The notes beneath the pieces were generated by a model. That model was not told the DNA's origin, ran no database searches, and worked only from the letters and a program-made list of their open reading frames with translations. Positions 19,640 to 51,105 of a stretch of DNA of 64,000 nucleotides are shown here, one piece after another. The DNA comes from Emiliania huxleyi CCMP1516 (taxonomy: Eukaryota): contig NW_005201392.1 in NCBI RefSeq assembly GCF_000372725.1, positions 661,660 through 725,659 on the forward strand, given 5' to 3'. Position 1 is the first letter of the stretch. Each line of letters starts with the position of its first letter. The position numbers were made by a program, and so were the translations under genes.

Positions 19640-19998
19640 CTATGACGACGAGCTCTACCAGGCATGGAGGGACGGCGAGATAGGCGAAAAGGACTTGCCG
19701 GAGGAGGTGATGGCTATGACTTTGGACCTTTGCGGAGAGGTGGCGAGCGGAGCAAGCGCGGTGTAGGCGCGCCCACGCGGCGCAGCGGCTCTCCCGCGAC
19801 CATAGCCCCTCCCGCAGCCGCAGCCGTAGCCGCAGCCCCAACTCTTGCTGCTCTTCTAGTGTCGGGTAGTGACCAGGGGTGAGGGGACACGGATTGAAGA
19901 TCCCTCACACCAAGATCGTGCAGGGCGGGGTCGGGGACACATGTCCCTAAATCCCATCTCGTCTCAGAGTTTGACCGTTTTTATTTATTTATTTATTT
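19640..19998 (+). mobile_element. Possible 3' end of a LINE-like element with (TTTA)n tail
   Basis: Short coding-like tail (YDDELYQAWRDGEIGEKDLPEE..*), then a UTR-like stretch ending in TTTTTATTTATTTATTTATTT. Confidence 0.35.
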
Positions 19999-20271
19999 AA
20001 TGCGGAACCGCGCAAGAGTTAAATTCAATTGAATATAAAACGAACTCCTGTTGTTATTCGCGTAGCAGAGTATGCATGTACAAAGAGAGACACGGTTCGA
20101 CTTTGGGAGTAGAGCCGTGTGCCGGTCGTGGAGAGTCGTGGAGGGTCGTGGAGTGACGAGTTAACGCCGAGTGTGCGCAAGCCTCAGCCTGCGCTCTCCT
20201 CACAACCTCATCATCGCGGGCGCTCACGACTGGCAAGGCATTGACGTCGCCTTGGCCCTCTTCCCCTCTTG

Positions 20272-25269: not shown

Positions 25270-26074
25270 CGATGACAGTCCCGTCAGTCGTGAGGGCGAG
25301 CCATCCGTCAAAAAGGCAAACACGAGGCTCCACCATCGCCTCCAGCCGCTTCGACCCAGGCTGAAAGCTCGCAATCTGGGCAAGGACAGCGCTGGCGTAG
25401 CCGGCGCTGCCCGGCGTCTGCGCAACAGCAAGAGCGACAGGCTGCTCTTTTCCCTGCACACTCTTCAGTCTCCGACCATACGCGGTGCGCTGTGCGTTTG
25501 TTGAGAGGGCCGCAACCTCGGCTGGACTTGCATATGGCGTCATCTCCCTGACGCTCGACCCACATCTGCTGCAGGTAGTGGCCGAGTTGCGGTTGACAGC
25601 GTCTCTGCAATGCCGACATAGCCACCACTCCGCCCGCAGCTGCGGCATCGTGCGCCATTCGGCGGCCGACGGTGTCTGACCGCGCTGCACTCGCATCTGC
25701 AAAGACACCGCCGCAAATGCCGCCGGACCTGCATCCGGAAGAGCCAGGATTCCGGCTGCCGCCGATGCTCCATCCCCCGCAACGAGCGTGCGATGCTGCA
25801 TCACTGCGCCAAGAGGCGCAGCAACCTCGACCCGGGTGTTGCTCGAGCCCGCAACGCCCACGGGGCGAATGCTATTGCCTGGCCCTATCGCCAAACGGCT
25901 CTGCTCCTCCTCTTGTCTGGCAGCAAACGCAAGCTGCGGCACAGGCCGCGTTGGCGCCGAGGAGGCGGCAAGCCTCAACGCGCCTACCCGTGGCATACCG
26001 CCGGATCGGGCCAAGACTAAGGCTGCAGGCGTCGGCCCCGGGTGCTGCGAGGGCCCTCCCGTTGAGGTGTCCAT
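25270..26074 (-). CDS. ORF with a RanBP2-type zinc finger, probably transposon-associated
   Basis: WLCRHCRDAVNRNSATTCSRCG fits W-x-C-x2-C-x4-N-x6-C-x2-C. It lies just inside a CAGGGTTGCCAG-type terminus at 26229, and its 5' part is duplicated at ~27703-27985. Confidence 0.45.
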
Positions 26075-26718
26075 CTTATGTGCAGTGGGGCTAACACTGT
26101 AGCGCGTCGGCAGGATCCCCAAAACCGTCGTAAACCCCCCAAAATTGAAGTCGACCGCCCAAAACTGTCCCCCCCCGCAAACTTTAACCCTCCATAAACA
26201 TCATTTTGCAGGGGCACCTGGCAACCCTGTCTGCACGTCTCGCGCGCGCGTGAACAGGGCATAGGAACGAGTGTATCGCTTTGACGGATCGACCGTGCTT
26301 GTTATCCACATCGATGTGACGCACACAGTGACACATCAGACGACACATATTCTCCCACCCGCCGGGACGCAAAACGCTCTCGACGAGGGCCACAAGAAGG
26401 CGTCCACACAGCAAGCCGCTCGTCGGACAGGCGTGCTCGCTCGATGCCGGCGAGCGCATTGCGCACGCTTTGGACGGTGGCGAAGCCAAAAACACCGATG
26501 GTGGCCGTCCGCTGGCGTGAGCGGCGGCGGTCGAGACCTCACCCTTCGCGCCGACGACCCAACCTTACGCGGAACAACCCAACCCAGGCCCAACAACCCA
26601 ACCCAACCCAAAAAGCACGATTCTCCTGTTGGGCCCTCAGTTATGCCCGCATCAAGCGCCAGTTCAGAGTCGTCCAGAGTCGTGGCACACACGCCGTGGC
26701 AGGCCGTGTAGCCACTGA

Positions 26719-27702: not shown

Positions 27703-27985
27703 CAGCTGCGGCACAGGCCGCGTTGGCGCCGAGGAGGCGGCAAGCCTCAACGCGCCTACCCGTGGCATACCGCCGGATCGGGCCAAGACTAAGGCTGCAG
27801 GCGTCGGCCCCGGGTGCTGCGAGGGCCCTCCCGTTGAGGTGTCCATCTTATGTGCAGTGGGGCTAACACTGTAGCGCGTCGGCAGGATCCCCAAAACCGT
27901 CGTAAACCCCCCAAAATTGAAGTCGACCGCCCAAAGCTGTCCCCCCCCGCAAACTTTAACCCTCCATAAACATCATTTTGCAGGG
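27703..27985 (+). repeat. Direct repeat of 25932-26214
   Basis: Near-identical ~280 bp from AGCTGCGGCACAGGCC to CATTTTGCAGGGG. Confidence 0.9.
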
Positions 27986-29420
27986 GCCACCCGGCAGTAC
28001 AACGAGGGGTACAAGGTCGAAAGTGCATCGGTGTCGACGACCACAACGGGCATCCCAATCCAGTTGCTTTCCTTGTCAATAACTCGGAACTTGGAGACAG
28101 CAAGCACACTTTCGCGCTCAACGTCTGGCACCTTGTCCAGGGTGAGCCTCTGCGACTGTGACAAACCGTTGCCATCTTGCGACACTGACTCCACCGCTTC
28201 CGGCGGAAACCAAGCTGCCTCCGAGTCGTCAAACTGGACGCGCAAGCTATTGGTCCGACCAGAGTCTACTTTGACAATCTGCCCTCGTCGGCCTTTGTAA
28301 GGACCGGGGTAGCTCTCGAGCACACAAACTGCATCGCCGACTATCATTGCTGCTGCAGTTACTACGGGCAGCTAGAAGAAAACTACCGAATTTGGTTTCA
28401 GTATATTCGGACACGGCGAGACGTAAAAGGAAACAAGACAAGTGTCGCAAGAAGTCAACGTCATCAGGACAACAACACGACATGTACATGTACTTAGCAG
28501 GCGCTCAACGCCTTCTGCCCGATCATACGCCAGGAGCTCCAACAGCCGGAGACAAAGTTTATTGTGTTGACATACACCACAGGAGGCCCTCAGCTGTACC
28601 AATGCCCTTGTTCATCTACCTAAGGTACCAACGCAAGAGAGCGGCTTGCTCCAAGCGCCTCCCAAATTGTCGCGATAGACGAACGGCCAAAAACGGTTCA
28701 AGCAAAGCAGCGACTCACGGGCGGTGATCAGATCCCTCGCGAGAGATTATTATTGCAGTGCGGATGACTCGAAGCGCCCAGGCGGACCTGGCTAGCCAGG
28801 CTGAGCCCCTCGCAACCGACCCTCGACCACCCGCTCACGATTATGAGGCGAAAACCGGCTATCAGCGGCAACTGACAGACCGCACGCATGTTAGCTCTCC
28901 AAAACCTGTCATTGCCATCATCTGCAGATCCGCCGCGTAGTCTGGATCAAGGCATGCCCAACCCTCCTGCATCAGCTTGTCGTCTAGGGCCATAGCGCGC
29001 CTTGCGTTCTCTGAAGACAGCGTCTTGGCAACAGTCTCGCACACCGTGCGGAACAACGGACGAAGGTCCACCGCCGAGCCAGCGTGCATGCGCGCGTGGC
29101 TATGCAACTCTTGAACGAGGCCCTTGAGAGATGTCTTGACATACGGAACCTCGGCACCACTCATGTCGTACGTCATGCCCGTCACGAAGTTGCGGCCCAA
29201 GTGAGCACCTGCGTCGACCGCACGCTCTACAAGAGTGCGCAATCTGAGCAAACTCCCCTAGTCACCCGCGGCCGGACTCCATCCATCCGGCACGCGTCGC
29301 TGGGCGCTCAGAGCCGCGTCCCCTGCTCGCCACCCCGACGCCCAAGGCGCCCGAGTCGAACAACAGGCGGCACGCGAAGACTCGTACCACGCGGTATCAA
29401 GTGCTCAAGTGCTCAAGTGC

Positions 29421-30980
29421 TCAAGTGAAGGCAAGGCCGCGTTGAAAGCAGTTTACCCGAGATGTGGTTTCTCGGGCGGCGAGCCGGGAGACTAGCCCCT
29501 GAGCAGCGGGCGGGAGGTGGACTTCCTCTGGGACGACGCCGACCTGCCGGCAGCGCGTTGCGAACTCCGTCCATCGCGCTCGCGAGACGCAGTCAGCGAG
29601 GGGGTTGGCGTCCCCGTAGAGATGCGCCACGATGACGCGCGGCGCGAGCTCCTGGTACCAGGGCTGGGCGAGTAGCCACTGGTAGGCCGAGACCATCAGG
29701 GGGTTCTTCTGTGACTCCGCCGGCAGCGTGCGCGCGGTCGTGAGGGCGTCCGTGCGCAGAACCACGTACGCATTGCGGTTCGCCTTCAGCGCGCGGAGGA
29801 GCGTGGGCGCAAAGACAAGGAGGTAGGCTTCCGCCTCCAGCAGGGCCAGCTTCGGGATCAGGGCCTGCTCAGCGCGCGTGGCGGACACGTGGAAGGGGAC
29901 GCGAGCCCTGCCGGTCCCGCCCCCCGGCAGAAGGAGGGCAGTGATGTTGCTGACTCGCTCGAGCGCCTCCTCCCCCGAAGGCCGTGGGGAGAGGAAAAGC
30001 CTGAAGAGGTTCGGGGCCAGCGGGGCCGCATGGTGGTAGCGGCGCTCCTCGACGAGCCGCGCCTTCTCCCCGCCCTCGCGGTAGGCGAGCGCGTCGCGCA
30101 GAGCGTCGAGGCAAAGGCGAGGCGTAAGGGGGTCGTCGCGAAGCGCCGCCGGCAGCCCGCCGCCGAGCTCGTCCAAGTACTCTCCCAGGTGTTGCGCGAG
30201 GACAGAGTTGTCCATGCTCTGGCCCGGTTCCAACAGGGAGAAGCGCGTCGCGATAGCTGGGCGGAGGAGGCGTCCGGCAGAGCGGACATCCCCGCTGGCC
30301 AAGTTGCGCCTATCTTGCCGGTGGCACGCCCCAAGCAGGCGCAGGACCGAGACGAGGCGTTTCCACGGGAGGGTCGCGCCCGGGTCTTCCAGTAGCCCCA
30401 CGGTGGCGTGAAGGAAGAAGTCAGCCTCGGCGTGCAGAGCCGCGCGCGCCGGCACCGGCGCTCGCGCAGGGCGCGCAGGGGCGGCGCTCCGCCCGCCCCC
30501 GGGCCGGCGCGCCGGCACCGCCGCTTGGCCTGCGACGGCGGCTTGGGCGGCGGTCCCCTCCACCGGGAGAAGGTCGCCCGGGCCAATCTCAAGGGGGGAG
30601 AGATCGGCGATCTCGATCGCGGCGAGCACGTCCAGGAGGTCGTCGCTCGAGGGGAGGGGGGCGGCGAAGAGGCCCGCCTCACCGAGGGTCTCCAGCACTC
30701 GCGACCAGGCTGAGCCGGTCAGCGCGAACGTCAACGGGCAAAGAGCGAGAAACTGCGGGTGGCCCGGGTGCTGCTGGCCCGCGGCGCCCTGGCGGCAGCG
30801 CGCGAGAAGGGGGGCCGCGGCGGCGCAAGGGGCCGCCTTGCGCGGCATCCCGTCGGAGCCGGCGGTGGTCGCCGTCCACCCCAAGAACTCGGTGGCCTCA
30901 AGAAGCGGGGAGCTCTCGGGCATGATCAAAAGCATGGTGGATCCCGTCGGGTCCACCTCGGCGTCAAAAGAGTCGGCCAT
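29421..30980 (-). mobile_element. Internally deleted DIRS/Ngaro-like retrotransposon remnant (ORF1-like region fused to RNase H C-terminal half)
   Basis: VVLRTDALTTA..SQKNPLM..VIVAHLYGDANPLADCVSR matches the DIRS-type RNase H pattern (D..H.G..N..AD.SR). No RT or tyrosine recombinase is present. (TCAAGTGC)n lies at the 3' side. Confidence 0.6.
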
Positions 30981-31466
30981 CGTGGCCTTCGGAAGGGCGA
31001 AGAGGGCGACTCCGAGCGCGCTTCAACTCTTCCTCCTCGTTCCCAAGTTCGACGAGGAGAGAGGGAGCGCGCACAGACTGACGTCAGCTCTGCTCCTGAA
31101 GGACACCTCTGAAAGACACCTTCAGAGGTGTGGTGCACCTCTGAGGCACCTCAGAGGAAACGCTGCACTTCTTTTACCGATCTCGTCGCCAGACTCCGAT
31201 TTCTCTTTGTCGGGCCATGTGCCGCTCGCTCGTCCGCCCAAGTGACTCGGACGCGCGGTCGAGGGCACCCCACCGTTCCTGGGGCGCGCTGGCGCTCGCC
31301 CGCAATCGCCCCCCACCCATCCACCCTTTTGTCTTTGAGGCTGTCGCTCCGAGAAAACTTGTCTCGCAGCTGCGAGAAATTACCATCTCGAGTTCCGACT
31401 GTGGCTGCCGATGTGGGCGGCTGGTCTTTAACCTTGCCCTGCTCTGGCCTTGCAAAAAAGCAAATC

Positions 31467-34400
31467 ATGGTGTCGTCGCTGCTACTGCCGACGCTCGCTG
31501 CTGGTGGTGTTGACGTGAACGTCGCCGCTCTTTTCATGCTCTCGTACAAAGCGGTGTCGACCGCCGAGAGCTGCGCTGGCGTGGGCAACTGGCGGAATGG
31601 CACGTGCTGGGAGATTGAGCCGATGCAAGCTGTAGTCGTCAGCGCGCTACTCGGAGTGACGGACTTCAATTCGCGAAACGCAAGTGCTCTCCCCGCGCTT
31701 AGATCTTTGACGGCTTGCGACAAGCAGCTCCGATTTCGGCTGCTCGACAGCGGCGGCTCGGTCTCAAAGTCAATCCTCGCGCTGGGAGACCTTTCCGCTG
31801 GCACCGACCTCGTCATCGGACCCGGCCGCAGTTCCGTCTCAACCACCATAGCGCGCATGACCGGGGCTCACAACATCCCTCAAATCTCGTACTGGTCCAC
31901 ATCGCCCGATCTTGACAACATCGCTCGCTACCCGCGATTCATGAGGACCATTCCCTCCGACCTTAGTACTGCGTCGAGCCTCTGCAACTTGTGGAAGTAT
32001 GAGCTCGGGCTTTCAAACGTGGCCGTGCTCTTCGTAAATGATCCGTACGGCCGCGCCTACGAGGAAGCAGCGAAGGCCGCTTGCCTGACCCTCGGGTTGA
32101 CGTTTGTCAGCAGGGAGTTCTCCAACTCCAATGAGGATTCAATCCGCGAGGAGTCGATCCGTTCTGCGGCCATCAGCCTATCCAGCAGTGGCGCCAAGGC
32201 GGTGCTAGTCATCACTTTCCCAACGAGCCTTGGCCTGATTGTAGAGGCCGCGCTGGTCACCGGCCTGCTCAGACCTGGCACCTCCTTTATGTTTGCAGAC
32301 GGTGTCACCGCGGCGGAGTTGGACATGGTACACGGAGAGGGGCGGGCCGCGCTGAACGGTAGCCTGCAGATCAAGGCGTGCGGCGCGACCGACGACAATC
32401 CGCAGTGGGCGAGGTTTGACGACGAGCGATGGGCGACACTTCAGCCCGGAGACTTCAACGAGCACCTGCCTGCCGACTGGCAGCTGCGCGACAACTTTTT
32501 TCGCGATCCGCTATCGAGAGGCTGGCTGCCATCCGGCGGCTCGTTTGCTTACGACGCTGTCGTGGCGGCGGGGTTGCTATCGTGCAACGTGACCCCGACG
32601 GGCCCGCTTTCGTCGTCATTTGGCACGCGGTTCTGGGAGTCCAAGCAGACGCTGTCGTTCGAAGGCCTCTCGGGGCGCGTGGAGTTCGACGAGAAGGGCG
32701 ACAGGAGTGGTGCCAATGTGCACCTGTTCAACCTGGTCGACCAGGGTGGCTTCTCCGAGAAGTACGTGGCGCGACTCAGCAGCGGCGAGTGGGTCTGGGA
32801 GGGCGGTTCGCGCGAGAGCAGCGGCGTGATATACAACTTTGGCTTGGAGAAACCGCCTTTCGAAGCGCCGCCTCCGCCACCGCCGCTCCGTCCCCCGCCT
32901 TTTGAACCGGCACGGTACAACCACGAGGGCAGGTGCGGCCCGGGATACCCGGGTCTCGCTGGCAACGCGATCGGCGAGTGCGACCCGGAGAGCGACCTCT
33001 ACTGCTGCTCTCCCTTTGGGTACTGCGGCAGAACGGAGGAACACTGCAAGTGCGCCGACTGCATCGACTACCGCCCGTGCGAGGCGGCGTGCGCAGAGGG
33101 CGCGTGCTCGACGCCTCCGTTCGGGTACTCACGCCCGTGCCGCCCTAGTGACGAGCCTCCCAAGGCGCGCCTGCCAGCCCCTGCGCACGAGCCTCTCCTT
33201 TCCCAATCACCATATCCCGTCACTTCCGCAGGCGACCGTCGCTGTGACGGTGGACTTCGAGTGCGGTGGCGGCACCGCGGCAGCCATCGCTAATCTCACG
33301 GAGGAGCTCGAGTTCATGGTTGGGCGGAGCCAGTTACTGCCGCTAGCTCGCCCGATGATCGCCACGGTGCACGTAATGCCACGCGACGCCTTCACTCAGT
33401 GCGCTGTGCAGGCCGCGGCCGCCACCACCGCGCTCGCTCCCCTCCCTTTCCTTCGCTGCGTCTCAGCGAGCGCCGGCTGCGAGGCGATCACCCTGGGCGA
33501 GGACGCCACTGACGCATGCGAGCCCGAGATTTTCGGCATCGACGGCGACATGCTTCGCCGATGCGTCACGGAGGCGGGCGTGCGCCGACGGATGCACGAT
33601 GCGCCACCGGCTGCTGGCTTGAGCAGCACCAGCGAGTGCGCAGTCTCGGTCAACACGAGCGGCGTGCGCATCGTGCCTCCGTCGGCGCTCAAGGAGCTTG
33701 TGATCAACGACGTAGACATTCGCTACATCGGCTCGGTGGCCGTCGACTGCTGCGGCGGCGCGTGCAACGTGACGGATTGGGCGTGCGAGGCGTACACGCA
33801 CACGGAGAGGGTGGAGCGCAACTGTACATACACGAAGCTGGTGAACCAGCCCTGCTCCTCGGCCCGCGAGTGCAACTCCGAGTGTTGCGCCCGCGGCTTC
33901 TGCGCTGTGCCGCCGCCCGTCTCCAGCGGGCGCACTTGCCGCGACCCCAACGCGGTCCCCGGCGCGATCAACCTCGACGGTCCCATCCTCCGGCTGAGCG
34001 TGTTTGACGGCCCGGATGGGAGGCAGCTCCGCATTCCCTGCGGGCCCCGCTGCTTGAGTGGCGAGTGGTGCACGGAAAATGAGACGCAGGTGACGCGGTG
34101 CAATGACGGCGAGTGCTGCGGAGCCGACGGCTACTGCGGCGGAGGCAGCTCGTCGCTCGACCTCGAGACCGGCATGTACAAGAACGCGCTCGGCATCGGC
34201 AGGCACTCCGCTGTCCTCGCAGCCGCGTGCCACGAAAACAACGGCGATTGGCGCTATGTCGAGTGCCCACATGCGGACGAGCTTGAGCACGTTGAGCACG
34301 TGCACGTGAGGGTGTCCATCTTGATCCCCGCGCTCGTCGCGCCTCTGGCATGCGTGGCGCTGATGCTGAGCGTCGCCGCCATGTGCATGAGGCTGTCGCG

Positions 34401-37400
34401 CATCGCCGCGCTGCACGGCACGAGCCCGTCGATGCTGCTCCGCAGGCGGATCGCACGGAGCTGTCCCATCTGCCGCTTTCGGGCTTGCGCACGCGCGCTC
34501 TACCGTGCAGCGCGCTTTTGCCTTTCCTATGAACGTGCCGCTGAACCTCACGTCGTGTGGGCGCAGCTCTGCCGCAGGGCCAACAAGGAGCCGACATTGA
34601 GCGGCCCGCCCGACATTGAGCGGCTCCCTTTTGTGGAGCAGTGCCTGTGGAGTTCGGTGCTGGAGCGGAAGCTGTGGGGGACGGCCGCGCGCGAGGCTGC
34701 CCAGCTCCGCGAGTGGCTCCACGTGACTCGGAACACGACGCCCTTCATCGAGGCGTGTGTCGAGAAGCTGGTGTTGAGGTGCGGGACGGCGGCTTGCACG
34801 CTGCACGGCGGCGCCTGCGATGATGACGGCCACCGGACTGACCATCATCTTGCTCACGCAGACCTCGAGGCGGGGCCGAGGATGACGAGGACACTCTCGA
34901 CGGGGAACCTGCAAGACGTCTCCCAGACCCTCTCGCTGAACTTCGAAGACTTGCTTCGCTTCTGCCTCAACGAGCAGGGCGCGGGGGGGCGCAGGCTGTG
35001 GGAAGAGTGGAAGGCTGCCCTCCGCGCCCTTCGGTCAGAGGCGAAGCTCCAGCTGGAGTCGTCGAGACACCACCGCGACGCGTCATATCTCCGTGACTCT
35101 GCCTCGAGGCACGCGCCGAGAAGGGCGCTCGGTCCTCGCGTGGGGTCGTCCTCCGAGGCCGTCGAGTCTGAGCCCATCACGGTGCACGAGTTCGCCTCGC
35201 TCCTGCTCTCGCCGTGCAACAGCGCCATCGACATGGCCATCGAGCGGAGGAGCACCCCCACGGACGCAGGCGAGCCGCTGACGAGCTACTGGATCAGTAG
35301 CTCGCACAACAGCTTCCTCGAGGACGACCAGCTCACCTCCGCAGTGTCTGCCGACATGTACCGCCGCCTCCTGCTCTCGGGGACTCGCTGCCTCGAGATC
35401 GACTGCTGGGACCCCACCGCCTTTGGGCGGTGGTGGGGCCAGGGCCCGCGCGTTACTCACCGCATGCCGGGCGGGGTCCCTCTCCTCTGCGGAAGCGTAG
35501 CCTTCAGCGAGGTGGTCGCTGCGATTGCCGAGCACGCCTTCACCAGCAGCCCCCTGCCCGTGCTCCTGAGCCTGGAGATGCACTGCTCGGCGAAGCAGCA
35601 GAAGAAGATCGCCAGGGCGCTCATCGACACCCTTGGTGACCTGCTCTCCCGCAGCGACCGCGTCGCGAGCACGCCCCTCCGCGAGCTGCACCGGAAGGTC
35701 CTCGTCAAGATGCGGCTAAGGGGGTCTCGGGCACACCTTGGGGCATATCTCGGGCACATCTCGACTGTAGGTCCTCGTCAAGATGCGGCTCGACAAAGGC
35801 GGTACGCAAACGGACCCGCTCCTCCGCTCTCTCGTCACGCTGCCCTCGAGCTCCATCGGCGAACCGCTGACGCCCAAGGAGGTGGACAACGGCCTCGACG
35901 ACGGCTGCAGGCTTCGCGAAACGGTCTGCCGGAGCTGGAAGGAGCTCAGCGGCCGCACCACCGGCAGAAGCCGCTACCAGATCGGGGACGAGTGGCGGCT
36001 GGCGGGCCGGTGCGTCCGGTGCTGGCTCCGTGGCGTGCCTCTTGAGAGCCACTCCGATGCCGACGTTGCAACGCAGACGTCCGAGTCGCCCTTCGGGTCT
36101 CCGGGCTCAGCCGGCTGGCAAAGTGCTGGCTCGTGGCCAGCAGAGGAGTCGGCGAGCGAGCTCCCAGCCGCCAGGGTGCCGCGCCGCGGTGTCGTGAGCG
36201 TGTCTGAGGATCGACTGGAGTGGCTGTTGAGCGAGCAGGGAGGATGGTTTCCCCTCGCGGCATCGCAGCTCGTCAGAACCTACCCCTCTCCGACTCGGTG
36301 GTGGTCGACCAACCCGGACCCGCTCGTGCGCCCGCCCTCGCTCCCACCACCTCCTCTACCCGCCGCCTCCAACCACTTCCCCTACCCCACGCCTCCCTCC
36401 CACGTTCCCAAGCGAGGCGAACCCCCCCTCCCCACCCCTTCCCCACCACCACCACCACCCCGCCCACCCCACCCCCCGCCACAGGCGGCGTGGCGCGCGG
36501 GTGTGCAGATGGTCGCACTCAACATGCAGACAAATGATCTGCCGGTGCAGCTTCACGACGCTCTCTTTCGCGAGAGCGGTGGCTATGCCCTCAAGCCCGC
36601 GGCGCTTCGGGCGCCGCCCGGTCAGGCTTCGACCCCGCCCAAGAGAGGCCTCACGACCCCAAAGGGCCGCGGTGGCTCTGGCGGCGATCGTCTGTCGCGC
36701 GTGCAGGGCTTGGAGATGGATCAAAATGAGTCATCATCGCAACTCGGCAGCTCCTTGACTGTTCAGGGAAAGCTGCCGTGGCCGCCGCCACGAGAGGAGG
36801 TTCATCGGACGGAGCTGAAGGCGCCGCGCCCCACCGCCGCCCCGTGCGGCCCTCCCTGTGCGGCCCACCGCGTCAGCTCACCGAGTCAGTCAGCTCACCT
36901 ACCAGTCAGCTCACCGAGCGACCCACCGCGCAGGTGCTCTCCCTGCACCGGCTCCCGACGCGGGACGAGTGCCGGCCCCTCCACGTCGAGCCCCACCACG
37001 CCTTCGTTTCGCACCTCAGCGACAGCCCACGCCCGCCCAGCGGGTCGAGCGCAAGCGTTTCAAGCCCCCGCGTCGCCATCGAGCTGTACGCCATCGGAGG
37101 CTTCCACGCGGTCGGACGCGAGCCGCAGCCGCCGCCCGAGGCGCAGGGCGTGACTCGGCTCGTCACAGCAGTCGCGGAGGGCAACGGCCTTAACCCTAGC
37201 TTCGACGAGACCTTCCACTGCCTCGCGGCCGAGCCTCACCAGACCATCCTCCGCGTTGTGGTGGAGGACGAGGGGCGGCTGGTGGCGTACGAGACCGCGA
37301 TGCTCGGCTCCCTCCGCTGCGGCTACCGCTGCCTGCACCTGCGCTCACCGAGCGGCACCCAGATCGACTCGTGCTGCCTCCTGCTCCACATCTCCGTCGC

Positions 37401-38589
37401 CACCGAGCCAAACACCTTCGGCACTGTCGACGAGCTGCGCAGCAGGGTGCAGTCGCAGCGCTCGCGCATCAGCCAGCAGAGCCGCGACATCCACCACTTA
37501 AGCGCAGAGCTCTCGCGGCTCGGAGGCATGTCGTCGTCGCCGGTGCTGTCCCCCGCGCCGAGCTGTCTGAGCGCACGCTGGCCGTTGGAGCTGGTGCTGG
37601 ATGCGGGGGTCAATGGGGCTCGCGTAGGCCGGCCGTCGCCGATCGCGCTGCCTCCCAGCGCCACGCTGACAGTCGGTCGCGACGCGTCGAGCAGCATCGC
37701 CCTGTTCCCACTCAACGCGCAGCACATCTCGCGCCAGCACGCCGTGCTCCACGTCGCTGCAGACGGCCGCAGCGTCCGGCTCGAAGACGTCTCGCACAAG
37801 AACGGATGCCGTGTGCAGCAGCCGGGAGGTGGTGGCGAGCCGGTCGTCCTGCAATCTACGGCCGAGGGCGTTGCGAGCGCCCAGCTGCGTGAGGGCAGCG
37901 TGCTCACCTTTGGGCACTGTGGCGCGACGGACCGCCGACGAGACGAGCCAGCCGAGCTCGTAGAGGCCGTCGCCAGACGCCGTGCCCGTCGATTGAATCC
38001 GCCTGTTCCGGACGAGTTTCGCTACGTTGTTCGCGCCGCTGGTGCCGAGGGTTCGCCCCCAAGTAGCCCCGAGCTCTCGCGGCGTGCGACGCGGCGCACG
38101 ATCGAGCTTCCTCGTGTTGCGCCGTGCGTTCGCTCGCCGTGCATCTGGCAGTCTCCGCTGGCGTCTGCGATGGGCACATCGCACGACTCGCATGGGTTGA
38201 CAGCGGCAGCGCCGAAGCCCGCAGGGTGCCGAGGTCCATCTGGCATGTTGTCAGGCATGTGGATGCAGCGCATGTCCGCCCACAGCGAGGACCGCGAGGA
38301 CATCAGCCGTGACGGCGAAAATAATCCCGCGCCCGCTTCGCCGCCACCGTCGCTGCCGCCCTCGCTTCAGGCCTCCTCGTTATTGCCTGCCGCGATGCCT
38401 TCGAAGCTCCGGACTGGCCCGCCGCGGGCGAACTCGCACGCCTTTTACGCAGGGGTTGGCATCACACCCGCTTCGGCGCCGCAAAAGCGTCGTAGCGTGC
38501 ACACCGGGTCCCCGCCCCCAGCAAGTCACCACACACCAACACGAACGGTGGCGGCTGGCCGTGGCGCTGGCGGGGGCAGGTCGCCATGA
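31467..38589 (+). CDS. Single-pass membrane protein: Venus-flytrap ectodomain + hevein-like Cys modules + TM + PI-phospholipase C (X/Y/C2) + FHA (~2,236 aa)
   Basis: Five exons: 31467-33164, 33232-35697, 35771-36325, 36485-36820 and 36934-38589, all joined in phase 0. Motifs: VIGPGRSSVS, IPQISYWSTSPDL, YPRFMRTIPSD and FEGLSGRVEFDEKGDR (class C GPCR/ANF-receptor ligand domain); CCSPFGYCG; TM VSILIPALVAPLACVALMLSVAAMCM; PLTSYWISSSHNS, CLEIDCWD, LPVLLSLEMHCS, LVRTYP and GVQMVALNMQT (PLC); NGLNPSFDETF and GYRCLHL (C2); TVGR, ISRQHA and KNG (FHA). Confidence 0.85.
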
Positions 38590-39605
38590 ATGCATGATTT
38601 TAACTCTAACTCAGCGATATGTCGCTGGTCATGATGACATATGTGTGAGTGCCGGCCCGCCACATTATACAAAACGAAAACAAAGAAGAAGTGGCCGCTC
38701 GGCCCGGCCGACTACACGGTGAGCCATACGAGGGGCAAAATGGTAAAAGTCAGGCGCGCGAAAATTTTGGACATTCTACTCTCCGTAAAATTCTACTCTC
38801 CGTCGGCGCCCGCGGCGCTCTCCAAATACTCGCTCACTATAGCGGCGTGCAGCCGGCGGCGCAGCCACGCCTTTGTTGCCCGAGAGGGCCTCGGCACCCT
38901 CGCCCAGGAGCCAGGTCCTCCTTGAGCTCCACCACCTTCATCGCCACCAGCTCCTCTTCCCGCGAACTCGCCTCCCGCGCTAGCATTGTAGCGCGAGAGT
39001 GGATCTCCTGCATTGCACGCTCTGCACCAACCTCTCGCGCTCGGTCGCCTCGCTATAACGAGCCAGTGCTATCTGCGCAGCCAGTGGGCAGCATTGGCGT
39101 TGTTTTTTTGAGCCGATTTTGCCTCCACTGATTGCACCGCGCCGCACTGTGCTTTCGTGCAGCCGGGTTGACGCGGGGCCTCGGGTTTAGCCAAAGTGAA
39201 ATGACGACCGCCCACCGCTTGTGCAAGCGTGATCACTCGCTGCTGCACTGGCTGCTGCTGCTGCACTGGCTGCTGCTGCTGCGCACTGGCTGCTGCTGCA
39301 CCTGACCCAGCGCGTGTGAAGGCACTTGGCGAGGCTGCAGCCGGAGCGGTGTAGGTGGACAACGATGCGGCGTGACGGGCGCGGGCGGAGTGGCGGACGC
39401 GAGACGCTGCACCGTCGCGCACGTCGGACCCGACGAGAGGGGTGTTCGGTTGCGGGTATCATACGCAAGCACGAGCGGTCGGTGACGCGACGGCGTTATC
39501 ACCGTTGCCCACGCGCGAAAGTGTGTTGTGGAGGGACGCGTCCTTACAAACTTGTAGCGCTACAAGACGACCAAGTGGTAAAAGCCGCACTCTCCCCTGA
39601 CCCGA

Positions 39606-42578
39606 TCAAAAGCGTAAAAGCACCCGAAGCTCCAAAAACCTAACCCTCAGACTATGCTTGGCCCTCGCCGCGAGCCCTGCACGGCTCGCAGGCGAGAGGC
39701 TCACGCCGAGCATCAGCAGCAATGCAACGTTGGTCGCGCACACCGCGAGCACCCAGCCAAAGGACGCGTCGCCAGCGGCGTGGCAGAAGCCGGTGCTGCA
39801 CGAGGATGCCACGGGCATGTGCAAGGCGTCGCGGAACGACGTCGCCCGCGCATGTGTGAGGAAGATGCCGAGGAGCATCACCAGCCCGAGCGTGGCATCG
39901 GCACAGGGCACGAGCTTCACGAAGCGCCAACGGCAGGCGGCGCCGGAAGCGGTGCCGACGACAGCCGCCAGCCAGAGCAGCACGCGGCCTGCCAGCAGCG
40001 CGTGGTGGTAGGGGGCGCTCGCCTCATCCGGGAGCGCCGCCACCCGCGGCCACAAGTTGCGCACGGTCTCGACGGCGGAGGTGAGCATGAGGACGGTGAC
40101 GACGAGCAGAAACTGCCGACCACGCCGCAGGTCGGCGCTCGTCGGCAAGGCCGCGGCCAGCACGCACAGCCCGAGCGTGTAGAAGGCAAAGAGGGTCGCC
40201 ACCTGCGGGACCATGCCGCCACCACGGCCGCCGCCATGGCTGCCGGTCGGCATCGCGTCGGCCGCATCACGTCGCATGCCCCACTCCTCCCTCTGCTCCC
40301 GGAAGAGGAGGAGGTGGTGGGACACGACGAGGAGACAAATGCACGCGAATGCGCCCGCCAGGCAGGCTCTGGTGACGCGCTCGTTGACGCCACCGTCCTC
40401 GAAGTTGACGCTCACACAAGGCAGCATCGTCAGTGGACGCTCACCCAAGATGAACTCCTTGATGACCTTCTGGCAGAGGAGGGTGAGGGCGAGGCTGCCC
40501 AGGGTCGAGAGGTGGTAGGGGAACATCTCGTAAATGAAGGAGAGCCGCTCGTCGAGTAGGTACGTGGCCACACCGAAATTGCTGGCAGTCGACAGAAGGA
40601 AGCCGGCCACCACCATGCACTTCCAGCGAAGGGGGCGCGGCATGGTGGCGGTCACCGCCCCGATTGCCCCAACTAATACAGTCCCGGGCACACGAAAGCT
40701 GTCCATGCTCTCCTTGGCGCGCAGAAGATCGTCCGCGGGGACGAGCCACAGTAGCGCCGTCAGCGGAAGAGGGTGAAGCGGGATCACGAACGCCCACGCG
40801 CGAGCCAATTCGTCGCCGCAGAGCAGCGCGTTGGACACGGAGAAGGCGGCCAAGCTGAGGCACACCGCGCCAAAGAAGACGGGGAAGATGGACGCCATCT
40901 CGCTTTGGTGCGCGGACAATGCGGCTCCGGCGGCGCCGACCGCGCCGACCACGAGGCTGAGCGAGAGGACGGGCTCCATCCCCGGCCCCCTCGCGAGGAA
41001 GCCGACGGCCGTGCCGTACCGCGGCGCTGGCGGCTCGGGCGGCGATGGCGGGAGCGACGTCGGAAAGGGGACAGCCTCCTGCACGACCGGCAGGGATTGC
41101 AGAGGCACCTGCGGCGCCACGCTCGCGTCGATAGCCGGCATTCGGCCTGGCAAGGCTGCCGCTTGAACAAAGCCTGGCAAGGCTGCCGCTTGAACAAAGC
41201 CTGGCACGGCTGCCGCTTGAACAAAGCGCCCGCACTCGTCGCGCCTCTGCGCGGCGCGAGGCGGCGCGCGGTCCTCCAGCGAGCGCAAGAGCACGTCGAG
41301 CTCGAGCTCGATCAAGCGCTCAGCGTAGGCGTCTGACGCGTGCGGCCGAGCGTAGGCGTCGGACGCGTACGGCACACTGGACATCAGCGGCCCCTCGGGC
41401 GCCGCTGCCGCACTCCCCTGGAGCCCCGCCTGGAGCGGCGGGGCGCTCCCTGCGTGGCTCGCCTGAAGGTAGCCTTGGCTCCCGACTGCGGCCGCTGCTG
41501 CCGTCATCGGAGGCGGTACGGGCGTGCTCGCAAGCTCCGCGCCCCGCCCCGCGTCCGCGTCGCCGTGCCCGCTCTGCGCCTCGACGAAGCGTAACCACTC
41601 GATCGCCTGTTGCGGGTCAGCAAGGAGCGCTTCGGGAGAGAAGAAACGCAGGGCCGGCACCTGCGCGATGATCACGCGGCACGCGTCGAGCATCACACGT
41701 CGAGCCATGTCCTCCTCGGCCGGGAGAGAGCCACTCATCGGTCGAACATCACTCGGCGTGGTGGCAGCAAGCATCACGGGAGTAGGCTCAGAGAAGAGGC
41801 TCGCATCGCCGCGCTGCCCCGCCCACGCGGGGGCTGCAGTTGTCTCCTCCCGCGCGGCGGCAAACGCGGCGGCAGGCTCGGAGGGCGGCAGTGGCTGCCC
41901 GAGAGGCGGCAGTGGCTGCCCGAGAGGCGGCAGTGGCTGCCCGAGAGGCGGCAGTGGCTGCCCGAGAGGCGGCAGTGGCTGCCCGAGAGGCGGCAGTGGC
42001 TGCCCGAGAGGCGGCAGTGGAGGCGGCAGTGGCTGCCCGAGAGGCGGCGAGGCGGAGAGCAACGAGGATGTGGGGGAGTTCGTGCTGTCGGGGGTGGCAC
42101 CGCCTTGAAGCGGCAGGGGGATCGCGACGACGGGCTTCAGCGTCCTGCCAACCTTGAAGCCGATAGAACTGTCCTGCATCGCGACGGGGAGCGGCGAGAG
42201 CCCGGGCAGCGCGTGAGGCGTCTCGTCTTTCAGGATGGCGAGCTTCGCACCCGAACAGCACTTTGTCTGATTGACGATGCGGTGAGCCGGGAGGAGGGTA
42301 CGCCGCGAGGCCAGGCCGGAGGCGCAGCTGCGCGCGGGTACGTTCCACAGCCCTCCCGCTTGCGTGTTTGCAAGCTCATTTCCAACCTCCACAATCCGTA
42401 TCCGGGACGCGGGGACGAAGATAGTGCCCTCGCGGCAATCTGCGCAGAAATGCTCCTTAAAGGCGCCGCTCATCGGCTTGACGGGTGCGCACGTGGTGAA
42501 GCCAGCAAGCTCGCCTCCCCAACACGACCTGACGGGCGCGTCCGCCTCGTCGCAGGCCCGCTTCAATCCTCGCTGCAT
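39606..42578 (-). CDS. Hypothetical protein: N-terminal Cys-rich domain, Pro-rich linker, C-terminal multi-pass membrane region
   Basis: Uninterrupted ORF of ~990 aa from MQRGLKRAC. Contains CWGG..C..FKEHFCADC..GGLWN..RIVNQTKCCSG and roughly ten or more hydrophobic segments in the C-terminal half. Confidence 0.7.
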   Translation of the reverse strand: MQRGLKRACDEADAPVRSCWGGELAGFTTCAPVKPMSGAFKEHFCADCREGTIFVPASRIRIVEVGNELANTQAGGLWNVPARSCASGLASRRTLLPAHRIVNQTKCCSGAKLAILKDETPHALPGLSPLPVAMQDSSIGFKVGRTLKPVVAIPLPLQGGATPDSTNSPTSSLLSASPPLGQPLPPPLPPLGQPLPPLGQPLPPLGQPLPPLGQPLPPLGQPLPPLGQPLPPSEPAAAFAAAREETTAAPAWAGQRGDASLFSEPTPVMLAATTPSDVRPMSGSLPAEEDMARRVMLDACRVIIAQVPALRFFSPEALLADPQQAIEWLRFVEAQSGHGDADAGRGAELASTPVPPPMTAAAAAVGSQGYLQASHAGSAPPLQAGLQGSAAAAPEGPLMSSVPYASDAYARPHASDAYAERLIELELDVLLRSLEDRAPPRAAQRRDECGRFVQAAAVPGFVQAAALPGFVQAAALPGRMPAIDASVAPQVPLQSLPVVQEAVPFPTSLPPSPPEPPAPRYGTAVGFLARGPGMEPVLSLSLVVGAVGAAGAALSAHQSEMASIFPVFFGAVCLSLAAFSVSNALLCGDELARAWAFVIPLHPLPLTALLWLVPADDLLRAKESMDSFRVPGTVLVGAIGAVTATMPRPLRWKCMVVAGFLLSTASNFGVATYLLDERLSFIYEMFPYHLSTLGSLALTLLCQKVIKEFILGERPLTMLPCVSVNFEDGGVNERVTRACLAGAFACICLLVVSHHLLLFREQREEWGMRRDAADAMPTGSHGGGRGGGMVPQVATLFAFYTLGLCVLAAALPTSADLRRGRQFLLVVTVLMLTSAVETVRNLWPRVAALPDEASAPYHHALLAGRVLLWLAAVVGTASGAACRWRFVKLVPCADATLGLVMLLGIFLTHARATSFRDALHMPVASSCSTGFCHAAGDASFGWVLAVCATNVALLLMLGVSLSPASRAGLAARAKHSLRVRFLELRVLLRF
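41885..42047 (-). repeat. Coding 21 bp tandem repeat (LGQPLPP)x~7
   Basis: GGCGGCAGTGGCTGCCCGAGA repeated in frame. Confidence 0.9.
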
Positions 42579-42724
42579 CCTCGCCCCGAGCCCCTCGAGC
42601 CGCCGCCCGACCTGCCGCAGCTCGCGTGGGGCCTCGGAGAACAGAGTGGGTCTGCGAATTCTTTTTATTACAGTGGCCTTGCATTTTTGCCGTCGCCAGT
42701 CGCCCCCCCAAACGCTACAGCGGG

Positions 42725-42759
<35 letters not shown>

Positions 42760-44791
42760 GACGGGGTGGGTAGGGGGGTGGGGAGGCTGCTGTGTGCGCT
42801 GCGCGTGCGCGCACCGCACACCATACTCGAGTACGGCGGGAAACAGACGGCGAGGGGGCGGCGGCGGCAGCGGCGCAGCGCGCGCGCGGCGCGCGCGACG
42901 GAGGGGCGGAGCAGCGACCGCGCGCGCGGTCGCTGCTCCGTCTGTCCCGGAGCGCCGTCTGCGCGGGGTGCGCGTCAGGAGAGGGGGCAAGCGTGGCGGC
43001 GCGGGACGCGCGGCGGCGGCGGCGAGCAGCCGAGCGCTCCCTGCGCGGTGAGGCGGCCGGGCGAGGGCGCGGCGGGTGAACGGGAAAGGGAGCAGCCGGG
43101 CGACGAGAGGTAGGAGGTGCTCGCCGGCGAGCGCTCCCGCGCCTGCGGAGGGGCAAGGCCTGAGGGCGGGCGGGCGGGCGGGCCGGCCCCGGGGGGGGGG
43201 GGGGGATAAACGCTGCGCCGCCCCCGCACCAGCAACACTGGCCGCGGCTCGCCGCCGCGCGCCGGCTCGGAAGAGGGGCTGTCGACGGCACAGCAGCGGC
43301 ACGCCTCGGCGCTCGAGCCGCCGACAACCCCCCACCTCGACGTGACGGCCGTTCCCAGGGCCGGCCGGTGCGCGCCCGACCCACGCCCCCTCTCGCACCC
43401 CCCCGACCCCCCCTGCGCGGCGCAACCGCCCGCTGTGCGCCGGCTCGAGCGCCTATTGCCAAATCGCGACGTTTGAGCGCAGCGCACGCGTCCCACACGT
43501 CACGCGCGCGCAGGAGAGCTTGCGGCGGACACGTAGCGTGTACTCGCCGAGGGCATCGCGCCGAAAACCCCGCGCATTCCGCCCCAGCAGAGGCTGCAGC
43601 CACTGCATAGCTACACCACTGTAAGAAGAATGCACGGCAAAACTACGAGCATGGTAACGGGGGCTAGTTACGGGCCCTCAAGCTCGTAGGTCCGACCTCG
43701 TAGGACCTACGAGCTCGAAGCTGGTAAACTACCCTTGTAACTAGCCTGGTTACGACCCGGCGCAGCAAAATGCGGCTTTAAACAAACGCGAGAGGCTCTT
43801 CAAAACCATTCTAAAGCAACAACACACACGGACGAATCAAAAGAGTGCGCTCCTGCGCCTGCCCAACTACGAGCCGTGCTACGAGCTCCTCGTAAACCGG
43901 TGGGATGGCCAGCAGCAAAACTGCTCGGCAGGTTAGCGCACAACACATCTCGGCGCATCTCGGTTCATCTCGGTTCATCTCGACTGATCTCGGCTCATCT
44001 CGGGCCATCTCGGGCCATCTCAGCTCATCTCGGGCCGCGGCGGCGGGGAGGGCGGCGACGGCGAGGGCGGCGGCAGCCAGGGTGGCGGCAAGGCAGCGAC
44101 GGCGGAAGCAATGGCGGCGGCGGCGGCGGCGGCGGCGCGAGGGTGGCGGCGGTGGCGGCGAGGGCGTGGCGACTCGGGTCACGGGAGGAGCGACGGGGCT
44201 GGTCCTCAACTACGCCAACGTTTCCAACTGCAAGATCCTCTTCGAGCACCTGGGGAGCCAGATTGAGGACATCGTGCCCAGGCCGTACAATACACAGAAG
44301 AGGTGGGAGAAGGTTCTCCCTCTTTTCTGGGAGAACCGACGTCGCAAGAGCGCAGCGGCGCGCGGCCTCGCCAGTAGATTCTCCACCCGCACCGTCCTCC
44401 CCCCCACTCGTCCACGCCTCCCCCTCCCCCCTCCCCCACAGGCAACGTACCAGTACCTGAGGGACACTGTCTGCCTCAAAGTCGAGGACCTCCCTCAGCT
44501 GGCTGAGTGTCTTGTGAGTTTGTGTGTCTGTGTGTCGCTCACGCGAGTCGTCCTCTTCTGTCTCGCGTCCCCACCCATACCGCGTTGGTGTCCAGTCCGT
44601 GCCAGGCTGCGCATCGCCTTTGTATATCTGTTAGTGCCAGTGCGCGCCAGTCCCGTGCCTATAGTGTCGTGAGAGGGAGGGCTTGTAAAATTCTTTTGCC
44701 CGGGCCAGGGTTTCGGATAATTTTGGCTTATCCGCCGGCCACTACAAAAGAAGTATACAACCACGTGCATGACACAGCTAGTCAGCTACTC

Positions 44792-47235: not shown

Positions 47236-48221
47236 TTGCAAGGCGGGCGCGCTCTTCGGTGTTGCGGCCTGAAACCTACATGGAGAGGGCGGCCGCCCCG
47301 CTGTAGCATCAGTGCGATCGTCCGTCCATATTGGCCTCGTCCGTACGGAGGTGTCAGCCCAGCTTCTCAGCATGACCACGCTGCTCGCGACACCTCTCGC
47401 TCAGCCCAGGCAAAAAACGTGCTTTTCATCGTCTCGTGGACAACTACCGTCCAGCTAGATAATGCCGCGCATGGACCAATGGACGCGCTCGCGCAGAGCG
47501 GCACACATTCTCGCGCGCCTTCTGCCAAGATCTGTGAAATTCTTCTCTCCTCTGCCCGTGCCCTTTTGTTTCGTACCAATGTCTGAATGGCGATCGAAGC
47601 GGCCTTCCTCACTACCTCGAGAGAGAGTGTCGTGCGTTGAAATCTCGCGGTTTTTCTTTAATTCGTCGGATTACTTTCGTGTGTGGACCCCCCCCCCTCT
47701 TGACTTGGGCCCTCGGGGAGGCCTGCCACGGGCGGCGCCTTCTCTCGAGGTCTCGAGATACACAAAGCGGCCAAGCCGCCGCCCCCCCCGCCACTGCGGC
47801 GCCCACCACCTTAAAATGCGTCTTGTCCTTTCGCATGCGACCTCACACGGCGTCGAGCGCCGTAGAGACGGCCCCGAGAGCCGCCGCCAGGTGTGCCACG
47901 ACCCACGCACGAACGACCGCGAGGCTCGTGGCGGTGGACGCGCCAGACCCGCTTTGCGCCGCCGAGCTCAACGCCCGATACTCGGTCAGAGCCGGCGGAG
48001 CGACGGCGGCAGAGGTGCGGCCGCCGTCGCATTCGACGAGCGACCATTCACAGCCTTGTTATTGAGAAGAAAATACCTCCGATGGCGCTCTGCGCTGGTC
48101 TGTTCACAGCCTTGTTATGAGAAGAAAATACGTTCGAGAAAGCCAGCTGAAGGAGTGCTGCTATCGACCTTGCCCAGCCGCTCGGCCCGCTCCGGCTCAA
48201 CGAGACGCACGAGCCTTCGCG

Positions 48222-51070: not shown

Positions 51071-51105
<35 letters not shown>

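What the first reader, a model, noticed from the sequence alone, without database searches (positions are those of the whole stretch)
31467..38589. Candidate receptor phospholipase C: ligand-binding ectodomain wired through one TM helix to a PI-PLC
Seen: five exons splice in frame. They give a signal-like N-terminus, a Venus-flytrap domain (~31620-32840), Cys-rich modules, a single TM helix (~34312-34390) followed by basic residues, then PLC X (35272-35780), Y (~36190-36610), C2 (36934-37400), a coiled coil and an FHA domain. The catalytic His-Asn (SSHNS, 35305), the Ca-binding E/D (CLEID), the second His (RVTH) and the Y-box R/Y (LVRTYP) are all present. Established: canonical PI-PLCs are soluble enzymes activated in trans by G proteins or tyrosine kinases, and Venus-flytrap domains normally feed 7TM class C GPCRs, iGluRs or receptor guanylyl cyclases. 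Inference: this is a one-component receptor-enzyme in which extracellular ligand binding directly triggers IP3/DAG and Ca2+ signalling. I do not know of a characterised example.
Basis: partly seen in the sequence, partly recalled or inferred. Interest (0 to 1): 0.93.

Follow-up and report, generated by a model that had tools for sequence, protein, structure and literature searches.

The report
Haptophyte receptor-type phospholipase C
This gene, likely from a coccolithophore alga, is spliced into one message that joins a Venus-flytrap sensing domain, through one predicted membrane helix, to a phospholipase C that keeps its active-site residues, so it likely turns an outside chemical cue directly into a lipid signal without the G protein that animal cells need.

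Summary
Confirmed. Five exons give a 2236-aa frame: Venus-flytrap (VFT) domain, chitin-binding and Cys-rich modules, one predicted TM helix, EF-like, PLC X/Y, C2, coiled coil and FHA. Transcript contigs remove all four introns, and one spliced contig runs from the start codon into the PLC active site. All 11 PLC active-site columns are kept (one K to R); no PH domain was found. The VFT keeps the five alpha-amino-acid-binding residues of mGlu1 but not the glutamate-specific ones. The gene is not alone. Paralogs encode VFT-TM-PLC in one unbroken frame, and E. huxleyi has two related database entries. The same VFT clade also drives a PDE or a TIR-like domain, and the PLC sits in a clade with multi-TM PLCs of Prymnesium. 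The published qPCR primers for a calcium-induced, calcification-linked E. huxleyi 'PLC delta' (PMC7563939) fall in the VFT of a paralog; that paper does not mention a receptor domain. Ten literature searches found no description of a receptor PLC. Best reading: a one-component receptor-enzyme, analogous to Venus kinase receptors, likely gated by an amino acid. Ligand gating, activity and IP3/Ca2+ output are untested.

The parts
31467..33164 (+). Exon 1: short signal-like N-terminus, VFT, Pro linker, chitin-binding module
31467..31508 (+). Predicted short signal peptide (aa 1-14); first in-frame ATG; RNA of 3 runs reads Leu at codon 2
   Evidence: not tested with a signal-peptide predictor
31509..32852 (+). 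Venus-flytrap domain (aa 15-462) with S122, T145, D165, Y194, D278 aligned to mGlu1 S165, T188, D208, Y236, D318
   Evidence: Pfam PF01094 E 4e-34; best PDB hits mGlu5, mGlu1, CaSR; alignment; residue roles from PMC2680970
32922..33074 (+). Hevein-like chitin-binding module (aa 486-536)
   Evidence: 4z8i PGRP3 E 4e-12; Pfam PF00187 E 0.05
33165..33231 (+). Intron 1, GC-AG, 67 nt
   Evidence: skipped in 4 of 4 runs
33232..34269 (+). Cys-rich ectodomain stalk of unknown fold (to aa 912), with a second hevein-like motif by eye at 34096-34146; absent from paralogs P0002/3/5, shared with P0063
   Evidence: AlphaFold failed, pLDDT 35
34309..34389 (+). Single predicted transmembrane helix (aa 926-952), N-out/C-in
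   Evidence: hydropathy; positive-inside bias and 9 vs 2 N-glycosylation sequons
34390..34533 (+). Basic juxtamembrane helices conserved in the 1TM-PLC paralogs
34924..35238 (+). EF-hand-like segment; no PH domain detected upstream
   Evidence: custom HMM, iE 5e-7, matching only the last quarter of the PH-EF profile
35272..35788 (+). PI-PLC X domain (H1258, N1259, E1288, D1290, H1309, E1348, K1392, R1394), interrupted by intron 2
35698..35770 (+). Intron 2, GT-AG, 73 nt
   Evidence: skipped in X6, X8, X13 and X2 with a 22-nt side
35834..36181 (+). X-Y linker, 116 aa, Ser/Thr-rich; candidate autoinhibitory element (inferred)
36185..36601 (+). PI-PLC Y domain (S1531, R1557, Y1559), interrupted by intron 3
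36326..36484 (+). Intron 3, GT-AG, 159 nt
   Evidence: single contigs continue across it in 4 of 4 runs (table 8)
36788..37407 (+). C2 domain, interrupted by intron 4
   Evidence: Pfam E 7e-4; beta-sandwich in the model of paralog P0234
36821..36933 (+). Intron 4, GC-AG, 113 nt
   Evidence: skipped in 4 of 4 runs
37423..37524 (+). Predicted coiled-coil helix after C2
   Evidence: sequence; helix 857-882 in the paralog model
37585..37914 (+). FHA domain with GR, SRQH and NG motifs (pThr-binding motifs, roles recalled)
   Evidence: Pfam E 5e-8; GR and SRQH also in P0234
38026..38589 (+). Low-complexity Ser/Pro tail and stop; transcript contigs end about 38645-38716

Best explanation
The gene is transcribed and spliced as one message encoding a VFT ectodomain, one predicted TM helix and a PI-PLC with its active-site residues intact, and it likely works as a one-component receptor: binding of a small ligand, probably an L-amino acid other than glutamate, would close the VFT of a likely dimer, shift the TM and juxtamembrane helices, and likely switch on PIP2/PI4P hydrolysis to DAG and inositol phosphates with no G protein in between. 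Shown: one transcript, domain order, catalytic and amino-acid-binding residues, no detectable PH domain, and repeated VFT-TM-PLC fusions in paralogs. Inferred: topology, dimerisation, ligand class, gating, release of an X-Y linker brake, feedback through FHA binding to phospho-Thr, and any Ca2+ release. The TM anchor likely replaces the PH domain in holding the enzyme at its substrate. The membrane could be the plasma membrane or an endomembrane such as the coccolith vesicle.
For: One spliced contig from start codon to PLC-X His (X5). An X8 contig of 5403 nt with the same 5' offset continues across introns 2-4 to C2 (upstream part by arithmetic). P0002/3/5 carry VFT-TM-PLC-X in one unbroken frame, and P0009 (EMIHUDRAFT_102904) has the same order at 33% identity. 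11 of 11 active-site columns kept, one K to R. The paralog model matches the PLC-delta1 core, E 1.7e-41, TM-score 0.77 by target. 5 of 5 alpha-amino-acid residues kept, K409 and R78 positions not. The same VFT clade is joined by one TM to a PDE (P0008, E 3e-67) and TIR-like domains (P0001, P0004, below cut-off), as expected of a sensor reused with different outputs. VFT-1TM-enzyme gating by an amino acid is shown for Venus kinase receptors (PMC2680970, passages). All 3 RNA indels are in frame and none of 17 substitutions makes a stop.
Against: No binding, activity or localisation data. Paralog P0234 has the same cytosolic module without a VFT and P0063 has the Cys-rich stalk without a VFT, so ectodomains are exchangeable and may be anchors rather than switches. 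In this protein about 450 extra residues separate VFT from TM, which makes rigid coupling harder than in P0002/3. P0009 has Asp at one Ca-binding Glu column. The signal peptide is short and untested. No evidence was found for an IP3 receptor in this lineage. The runs are RNA by guess only; no silent stretch or DNA run was laid.
Confidence: 0.58

Rival explanations
1. Membrane-tethered PLC. The TM and ectodomain mainly place the enzyme at a membrane or adhesion site; activity is set from inside by Ca2+, G proteins or phosphorylation read by the FHA domain.
For: Ectodomains vary freely among close paralogs, and one has no VFT (P0234). EF-like, C2 and FHA modules are present. E. huxleyi has an expanded G-alpha set (PMC3971589, passage).
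Against: The five ligand-binding residues are kept across a VFT clade whose members are only 32-64% identical to this one, which a passive spacer would not need. The PH domain, described as a G-beta-gamma input in PMC7563939, is not detected.
Confidence: 0.2
2. Calcium-sensing receptor-PLC. The VFT senses extracellular or lumenal Ca2+, perhaps with an amino-acid co-agonist as in CaSR, and links Ca2+ supply to membrane traffic for calcification.
For: CaSR is among the best VFT matches (E 1e-9). The transcript of a VFT-bearing paralog rises after a 0.1 to 10 mM Ca2+ shift, and the PLC inhibitor U73122 lowers coccolith output (PMC7563939).
Against: mRNA induction does not show Ca2+ binding. The primers match the paralog, not this gene (6 mismatches). 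U73122 does not tell PLC isoforms apart. mGlu5 scores higher than CaSR. Related membrane PLCs occur in Prymnesium, which does not calcify (recalled).
Confidence: 0.12
3. Glycan or microbe pattern receptor. The hevein-like modules bind chitin or peptidoglycan-like glycans, and clustering activates the PLC in defence or prey sensing.
For: Strong match to the chitin-binding-type domain of PGRP3; sister VFT receptors carry TIR-like domains (E 0.05-0.08).
Against: The closest paralogs P0002/3/5 lack the whole Cys-rich block, so it is an add-on. The TIR matches are below cut-off.
Confidence: 0.07
4. Artefact or dead fusion: two genes joined by chance splicing or assembly, or a pseudo-enzyme.
For: No single contig spans the whole gene; C2 to FHA is joined only by short contig overlaps.
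Against: Spliced contigs cross the ectodomain-TM-PLC junction, paralogs show the fusion without splicing, the active site is intact, and GC3 is 0.71-0.85 in all five exons.
Confidence: 0.03

Closest known systems
Venus kinase receptors (VKR; PMC2680970, passages read)
   Same: VFT, one TM, cytosolic enzyme; alpha-amino-acid residues kept while Lys409 is replaced; reported to dimerise and to respond to L-Arg.
   Different: Output is a tyrosine kinase there and a PI-PLC here; VKR VFTs group with GABA-B receptors and occur in invertebrates.
Receptor guanylyl cyclases (NPR-A type) and trypanosome receptor adenylate cyclases (recalled)
   Same: VFT-type ectodomain, single TM, second-messenger enzyme inside.
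   Different: No kinase-homology or cyclase domain here; the product is lipid-derived.
GPCR-bigrams: GPCR-PIPK, -INPP, -AC, -PDE, -TKL, AP-GPCR (PMC5784254, 12 of 24 passages read)
   Same: Receptor fused to a signalling enzyme, including phosphoinositide enzymes; E. huxleyi is reported to have three GPCR-PIPKs.
   Different: 7TM rather than VFT-1TM; PLC is not among the six types listed.
Canonical PI-PLC delta/zeta
   Same: EF-like, X, Y, C2 core and all active-site columns; paralog model fits PLC-delta1.
   Different: Integral membrane anchor with a 920-aa ectodomain, no detectable PH domain, C-terminal coiled coil and FHA.
Class C GPCRs (mGlu, CaSR)
   Same: Best solved matches of the VFT; these signal to PLC through Gq (established knowledge).
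   Different: No 7tm_3 or NCD3G domain; the PLC is in the same chain.
E. huxleyi EMIHUDRAFT_102904 (P0009) and EMIHUDRAFT_99535 (P0234)
   Same: Database entries with VFT-TM-PLC (33% identity in the VFT) or TM-PLC-C2 (57-60% identity); auto-named phospholipase C.
   Different: Labelled 'hypothetical protein' by NCBI; neither is this gene; no paper found that notes the architecture.

Membership tests
Eukaryotic PI-PLC | X and Y catalytic domains | tested here: met
   paralog
Eukaryotic PI-PLC | Catalytic His pair, Ca-binding Asn/Glu/Asp/Glu, substrate Lys/Ser/Arg/Tyr (delta1 numbering recalled) | tested here: met
   11 of 11 columns, one K to R
Eukaryotic PI-PLC | C2 domain after Y | tested here: met
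   E 7e-4 here, above cut-off in P0234, beta-sandwich in model
Eukaryotic PI-PLC | N-terminal PH domain (most classes) | tested here: not met
   no Pfam hit; PH-EF profile matches only the EF end
Eukaryotic PI-PLC | Soluble or peripheral enzyme without TM segment | tested here: not met
   predicted TM at aa 926-952
Eukaryotic PI-PLC | PIP2 hydrolysis | not testable with these tools
   needs an assay
Venus kinase receptor | VFT plus single TM | tested here: met
Venus kinase receptor | Alpha-amino-acid recognition residues in the VFT | tested here: met
   5 of 5
Venus kinase receptor | Insulin-receptor-like tyrosine kinase domain | tested here: not met
   no kinase family hit in any exon
Venus kinase receptor | Dimer at the cell surface | not tested
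   no model obtained
Class C GPCR | 7tm_3 domain | tested here: not met
Class C GPCR | Glutamate side-chain residues (K409, R78) | tested here: not met
   G357 and V56 in those columns; alignment less sure there
Receptor guanylyl cyclase | Kinase-homology and cyclase domains | tested here: not met
GPCR-bigrams | 7TM receptor domain fused to the enzyme | tested here: not met
   one TM here; relatives P0121, P0229, P0136 have 5-8 hydrophobic segments

The most novel reading that the evidence does not exclude
Haptophytes have a whole undescribed class of enzyme-linked receptors, receptor phospholipases C, in single-pass (VFT, glycan-binding) and multi-pass forms. They replace the GPCR-Gq-PLC relay with one chain, and a VFT-bearing member is the calcium-induced PLC already tied to coccolith formation, so the family would be the missing link between an outside or lumenal cue and calcification.
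Probability: 0.3. Interest if true: 0.95.

Novelty: new variant of a known kind. Interest (0 to 1): 0.82.

Why it matters
Characterised eukaryotic PI-PLCs are recruited to membranes and switched on in trans (established knowledge). A PLC built into its own receptor would add a new catalytic output to the short list of enzyme-linked receptors (kinase, phosphatase, cyclase). It gives a concrete, testable sensor for a globally important phytoplankton group whose signalling inputs are poorly known. It also reinterprets a published result: the calcium-induced 'PLC delta' linked to calcification in E. huxleyi carries a VFT ectodomain. A ligand-gated single-chain PLC would be a useful synthetic-biology part.

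Tried and rejected
No whole genome was held, so paralog counts and an IP3-receptor search in this organism were not possible. No run was on record as RNA; the RNA nature rests on intron skipping. The complex predictor was not available, so no VFT dimer model exists. AlphaFold of the Cys-rich stalk with 2 sequences failed (pLDDT 35) and was not searched. The ESM Atlas gave no usable hit for exon 2 or P0009. An alignment search of VFT-PLCs returned only 3 of 7993 candidates and the C2 search 1 of 189; both are word-limited, so the taxonomic range of VFT-TM-PLC beyond E. huxleyi is open. A shared juxtamembrane motif between 1TM and multi-TM PLCs looked real by eye but scored only iE 0.06-3: inconclusive. 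My recalled labels 'HET-like' for P0006/7 and 'KCH-like' for one multi-TM group got no Pfam or NCBIfam support and are dropped. The X-only tree was the quick tree, with 19 of 146 inner branches starred. Four look-ups of earlier scan findings returned nothing. The supplement of PMC6715215 was cut when stored and lacked the c31896 rows. Rejected: split genes ending near 33293; class C GPCR; VKR or guanylyl cyclase membership; pseudo-enzyme.
Full report
Observation. Introns 1 and 4 are GC-AG. Pfam finds ANF_receptor (E 4e-34), PI-PLC-X (2e-34), PI-PLC-Y in two halves, C2 (7e-4) and FHA (5e-8) in the stated order. The first Cys module matches the chitin-binding-type domain of PGRP3 (4z8i, E 4e-12). 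Only one strong hydrophobic segment lies between ectodomain and enzyme (aa 922-960, peak 2.54). It is followed by 7 K/R and no D/E in 30 residues, and 9 of 11 N-glycosylation sequons lie on its N-terminal side. This points to N-out, C-in. The topology comes from hydropathy only. The organism is not given; the closest named proteins are from Emiliania huxleyi (89% identity over the C2 region), so a coccolithophore is inferred.

One transcript. Fourteen of 18 listed runs hold 86-88% of the sampled words; none is on record as RNA. I laid 7 of the 14. Intron 1 is skipped in 4 of 4 runs from 4 studies. X5 contig 22 (3898 nt) runs from 31415 to 35379, from before the ATG through VFT and TM to the catalytic His-Asn. 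In X10 one contig covers 33553-35231 across the TM. In one search, intron 2 is skipped in 3 of 4 runs, intron 3 in 4 of 4 (read from contiguous record positions) and intron 4 in 4 of 4. C2 to FHA is linked by short contig overlaps only, but exon 5 is one open frame and paralog P0234 has the same order. Depth is zero at 38949-39200 in 4 of 4 runs. All 3 RNA indels are multiples of three; 9 of 17 substitutions are silent and none makes a stop. No silent stretch or DNA run was laid as a control.

The enzyme. The X domain matches PLC-gamma2 and PLC-delta1 (E about 1e-25). In an alignment of 36 hand-picked PLCs (1 of 37 dropped for lacking the motif), the protein keeps all 11 active-site columns, with Arg for Lys at one (delta1 numbering recalled). 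An AlphaFold model of paralog P0234 (mean pLDDT 66.8, core mostly above 80) matches the PLC-delta1 core (E 1.7e-41, TM-score 0.77 by target). A profile of the PH-to-EF region of multi-TM relatives matches a canonical PH-EF PLC along its length, but matches the single-TM PLCs only at the last EF pair. So the PH domain appears lost and the TM anchor likely takes its place.

The sensor. The best solved matches of the VFT are mGlu5, mGlu1 and CaSR. [quoted passage not shown] The window protein has S122, T145, D165, Y194 and D278 in those columns, and Gly for K409. S, T, D and an acidic last residue are kept in all 12 related algal-type VFTs aligned, with Tyr, Phe or Trp at the fourth place. An L-amino acid other than glutamate is therefore the likeliest ligand. 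CaSR uses the same cleft (recalled), so Ca2+ is not excluded.

A family, not an accident. A search with exon 1 gave 14 hits among 7990 candidates. Four combine ANF_receptor and PI-PLC-X: P0002, P0003 and P0005 (64% identity; VFT-TM-X in one unbroken frame, without the Cys-rich block) and P0009, EMIHUDRAFT_102904 (33%). Others join the same VFT clade through one TM to a phosphodiesterase (P0008), a TIR-like domain (P0001, P0004; below cut-off) or an unassigned domain (P0006, P0007). P0234, EMIHUDRAFT_99535, has the same TM-PLC-C2 module without a VFT. Among the best 150 of 2922 hits to exon 2, 8 of 78 with enough N-terminal sequence have three or more hydrophobic segments before the X domain; named members are from Prymnesium parvum and P. 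polylepis. In an X-Y-C2 tree (36 rows, 447 columns, fast search) the window protein, P0234, P0009, the Prymnesium-type multi-TM PLCs, P0083 and P0113 fall in one clade (SH-aLRT 100, FastTree 1.0, read from the raw trees). That clade also holds four rows without clear TM evidence before X (P0071, P0074, P0088, P0096) and P0099, and two other multi-TM PLCs lie just outside it. P0009 is not sister to the window protein, so VFT-TM-PLC may have arisen twice; this is unresolved. Most rows have no taxon name.

A link to calcification. PMC7563939 (parts 1-4 of 7 read, rest searched by term, supplement rows seen) reports three PI-PLC unigenes up after a shift from 0.1 to 10 mM Ca2+ in E. huxleyi CCMP371 (values 1.49-1.60, read as log2 fold change) and fewer coccoliths with U73122. 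Its qPCR primers for c31896_g2_i3, 'phospholipase C, delta', translate in frame to two 7-residue peptides 26 residues apart in the VFT of P0002/P0003. The window gene has 6 mismatches to the forward primer, so it is not the target. The words transmembrane, receptor and venus do not occur in that paper. This shows that a VFT-bearing PLC transcript responds to Ca2+; it does not show that the VFT senses Ca2+ or that this gene acts in calcification.

Mechanism. Most likely (0.58) the chain is a one-component receptor. Ligand closes the VFT in a dimer, the TM and basic juxtamembrane helices shift, and the catalytic barrel, already held at the membrane, hydrolyses PIP2 or PI4P. The Ser/Thr-rich X-Y linker and the FHA domain are candidates for a brake and for feedback. 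Only the parts list is shown; every dynamic step is inferred from VKR, receptor cyclases and PLC biochemistry. Rivals: a tethered enzyme controlled from inside (0.2), a Ca2+ sensor (0.12), a glycan pattern receptor (0.07), artefact or dead enzyme (0.03). I could not establish an IP3 receptor in this lineage, so the output may be DAG, PIP2 loss or higher inositol phosphates rather than Ca2+ release.

Comparison and novelty. It works like a Venus kinase receptor or receptor cyclase but fails their membership tests, having no kinase or cyclase domain. It is a true PI-PLC by active site but not by being soluble. The GPCR-bigram survey lists PIPK, INPP, AC, PDE, TKL and AP fusions, not PLC (PMC5784254, 12 of 24 passages). 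Ten full-text searches and term look-ups in PMC4122161, PMC3971589, PMC3727952, PMC6715215, PMC7016017 and bioRxiv 2025.04.15.649019 (passages only) showed no description of a receptor PLC. The library lacks most subscription journals, and the architecture is visible in database entries, so a brief mention elsewhere is possible.

Verdict. Real, expressed and repeated across a family. A new catalytic output on a known receptor design: new variant of a known kind, interest 0.82. If gating is shown, it would found a new class of enzyme-linked receptor.

Noticed in passing
P0002/P0003 aa 248-280; window 32229 (homologous site): Both qPCR primers for the Ca2+-induced 'phospholipase C, delta' unigene c31896_g2_i3 (PMC7563939, Table S2) translate in frame to peptides in the VFT of P0002/P0003 and, of 233 stored proteins, only there (the forward one also in P0005).
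   Followed up: yes
P0121, P0229, P0077, P0091, P0097, P0218, P0083, P0127, P0136, P0146, P0187: Multi-TM PI-PLCs: 8 of 78 representatives with room before the His-Asn motif have 3 or more hydrophobic segments. Named ones are Prymnesium parvum and P. polylepis; some carry beta-helix and Ephrin-like ectodomains and keep a PH-like domain.
   Followed up: partly
P0008, P0001, P0004, P0006, P0007: The same VFT clade drives other outputs through one TM: cyclic-nucleotide phosphodiesterase, TIR-like domain behind two VFTs, and an unassigned domain.
   Followed up: partly
P0063, P0234: Ectodomain shuffling: P0063 has the chitin-binding and Cys-rich block (71% identity) behind a different Cys motif that also heads P0234.
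   Followed up: partly
window 35698-35770: Intron 2 begins with a copy of the first 20 nt of exon 3 (22 letters fit either side), which suggests intron gain by local duplication.
   Followed up: no
window 31177-31390, 32802, 32866: Loose ends in transcript contigs show that other loci share short stretches of the 5' region and of the VFT end.
   Followed up: no
window 16685-18130 vs 19889-21334: 1446-nt inverted repeat, 99.7% identical, next to the N gap at 18131: assembly artefact or element ends.
   Followed up: no
window 3685-4559 vs 18670-19535; 25932-26223 vs 27704-27996: Direct repeats of 877 nt (92%) and 293 nt (99%).
   Followed up: no
window 29421-31022 (-): 533-aa open frame just upstream, retroelement RNase H-like by recall; no Pfam or NCBIfam hit of note.
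   Followed up: partly
window 39606-42974 (-): 1122-aa open frame with a tandem Pro-rich repeat and a hydrophobic C-terminal half; no Pfam hit.
   Followed up: partly
window 10387-11397, 48066-49175, 50655-51710, 54411-55436, 56781-57767: Neighbouring frames hit U-box/Sel1, PH, alpha/beta hydrolase, Myb and DUF4336; no sign of a functional cluster.
   Followed up: no
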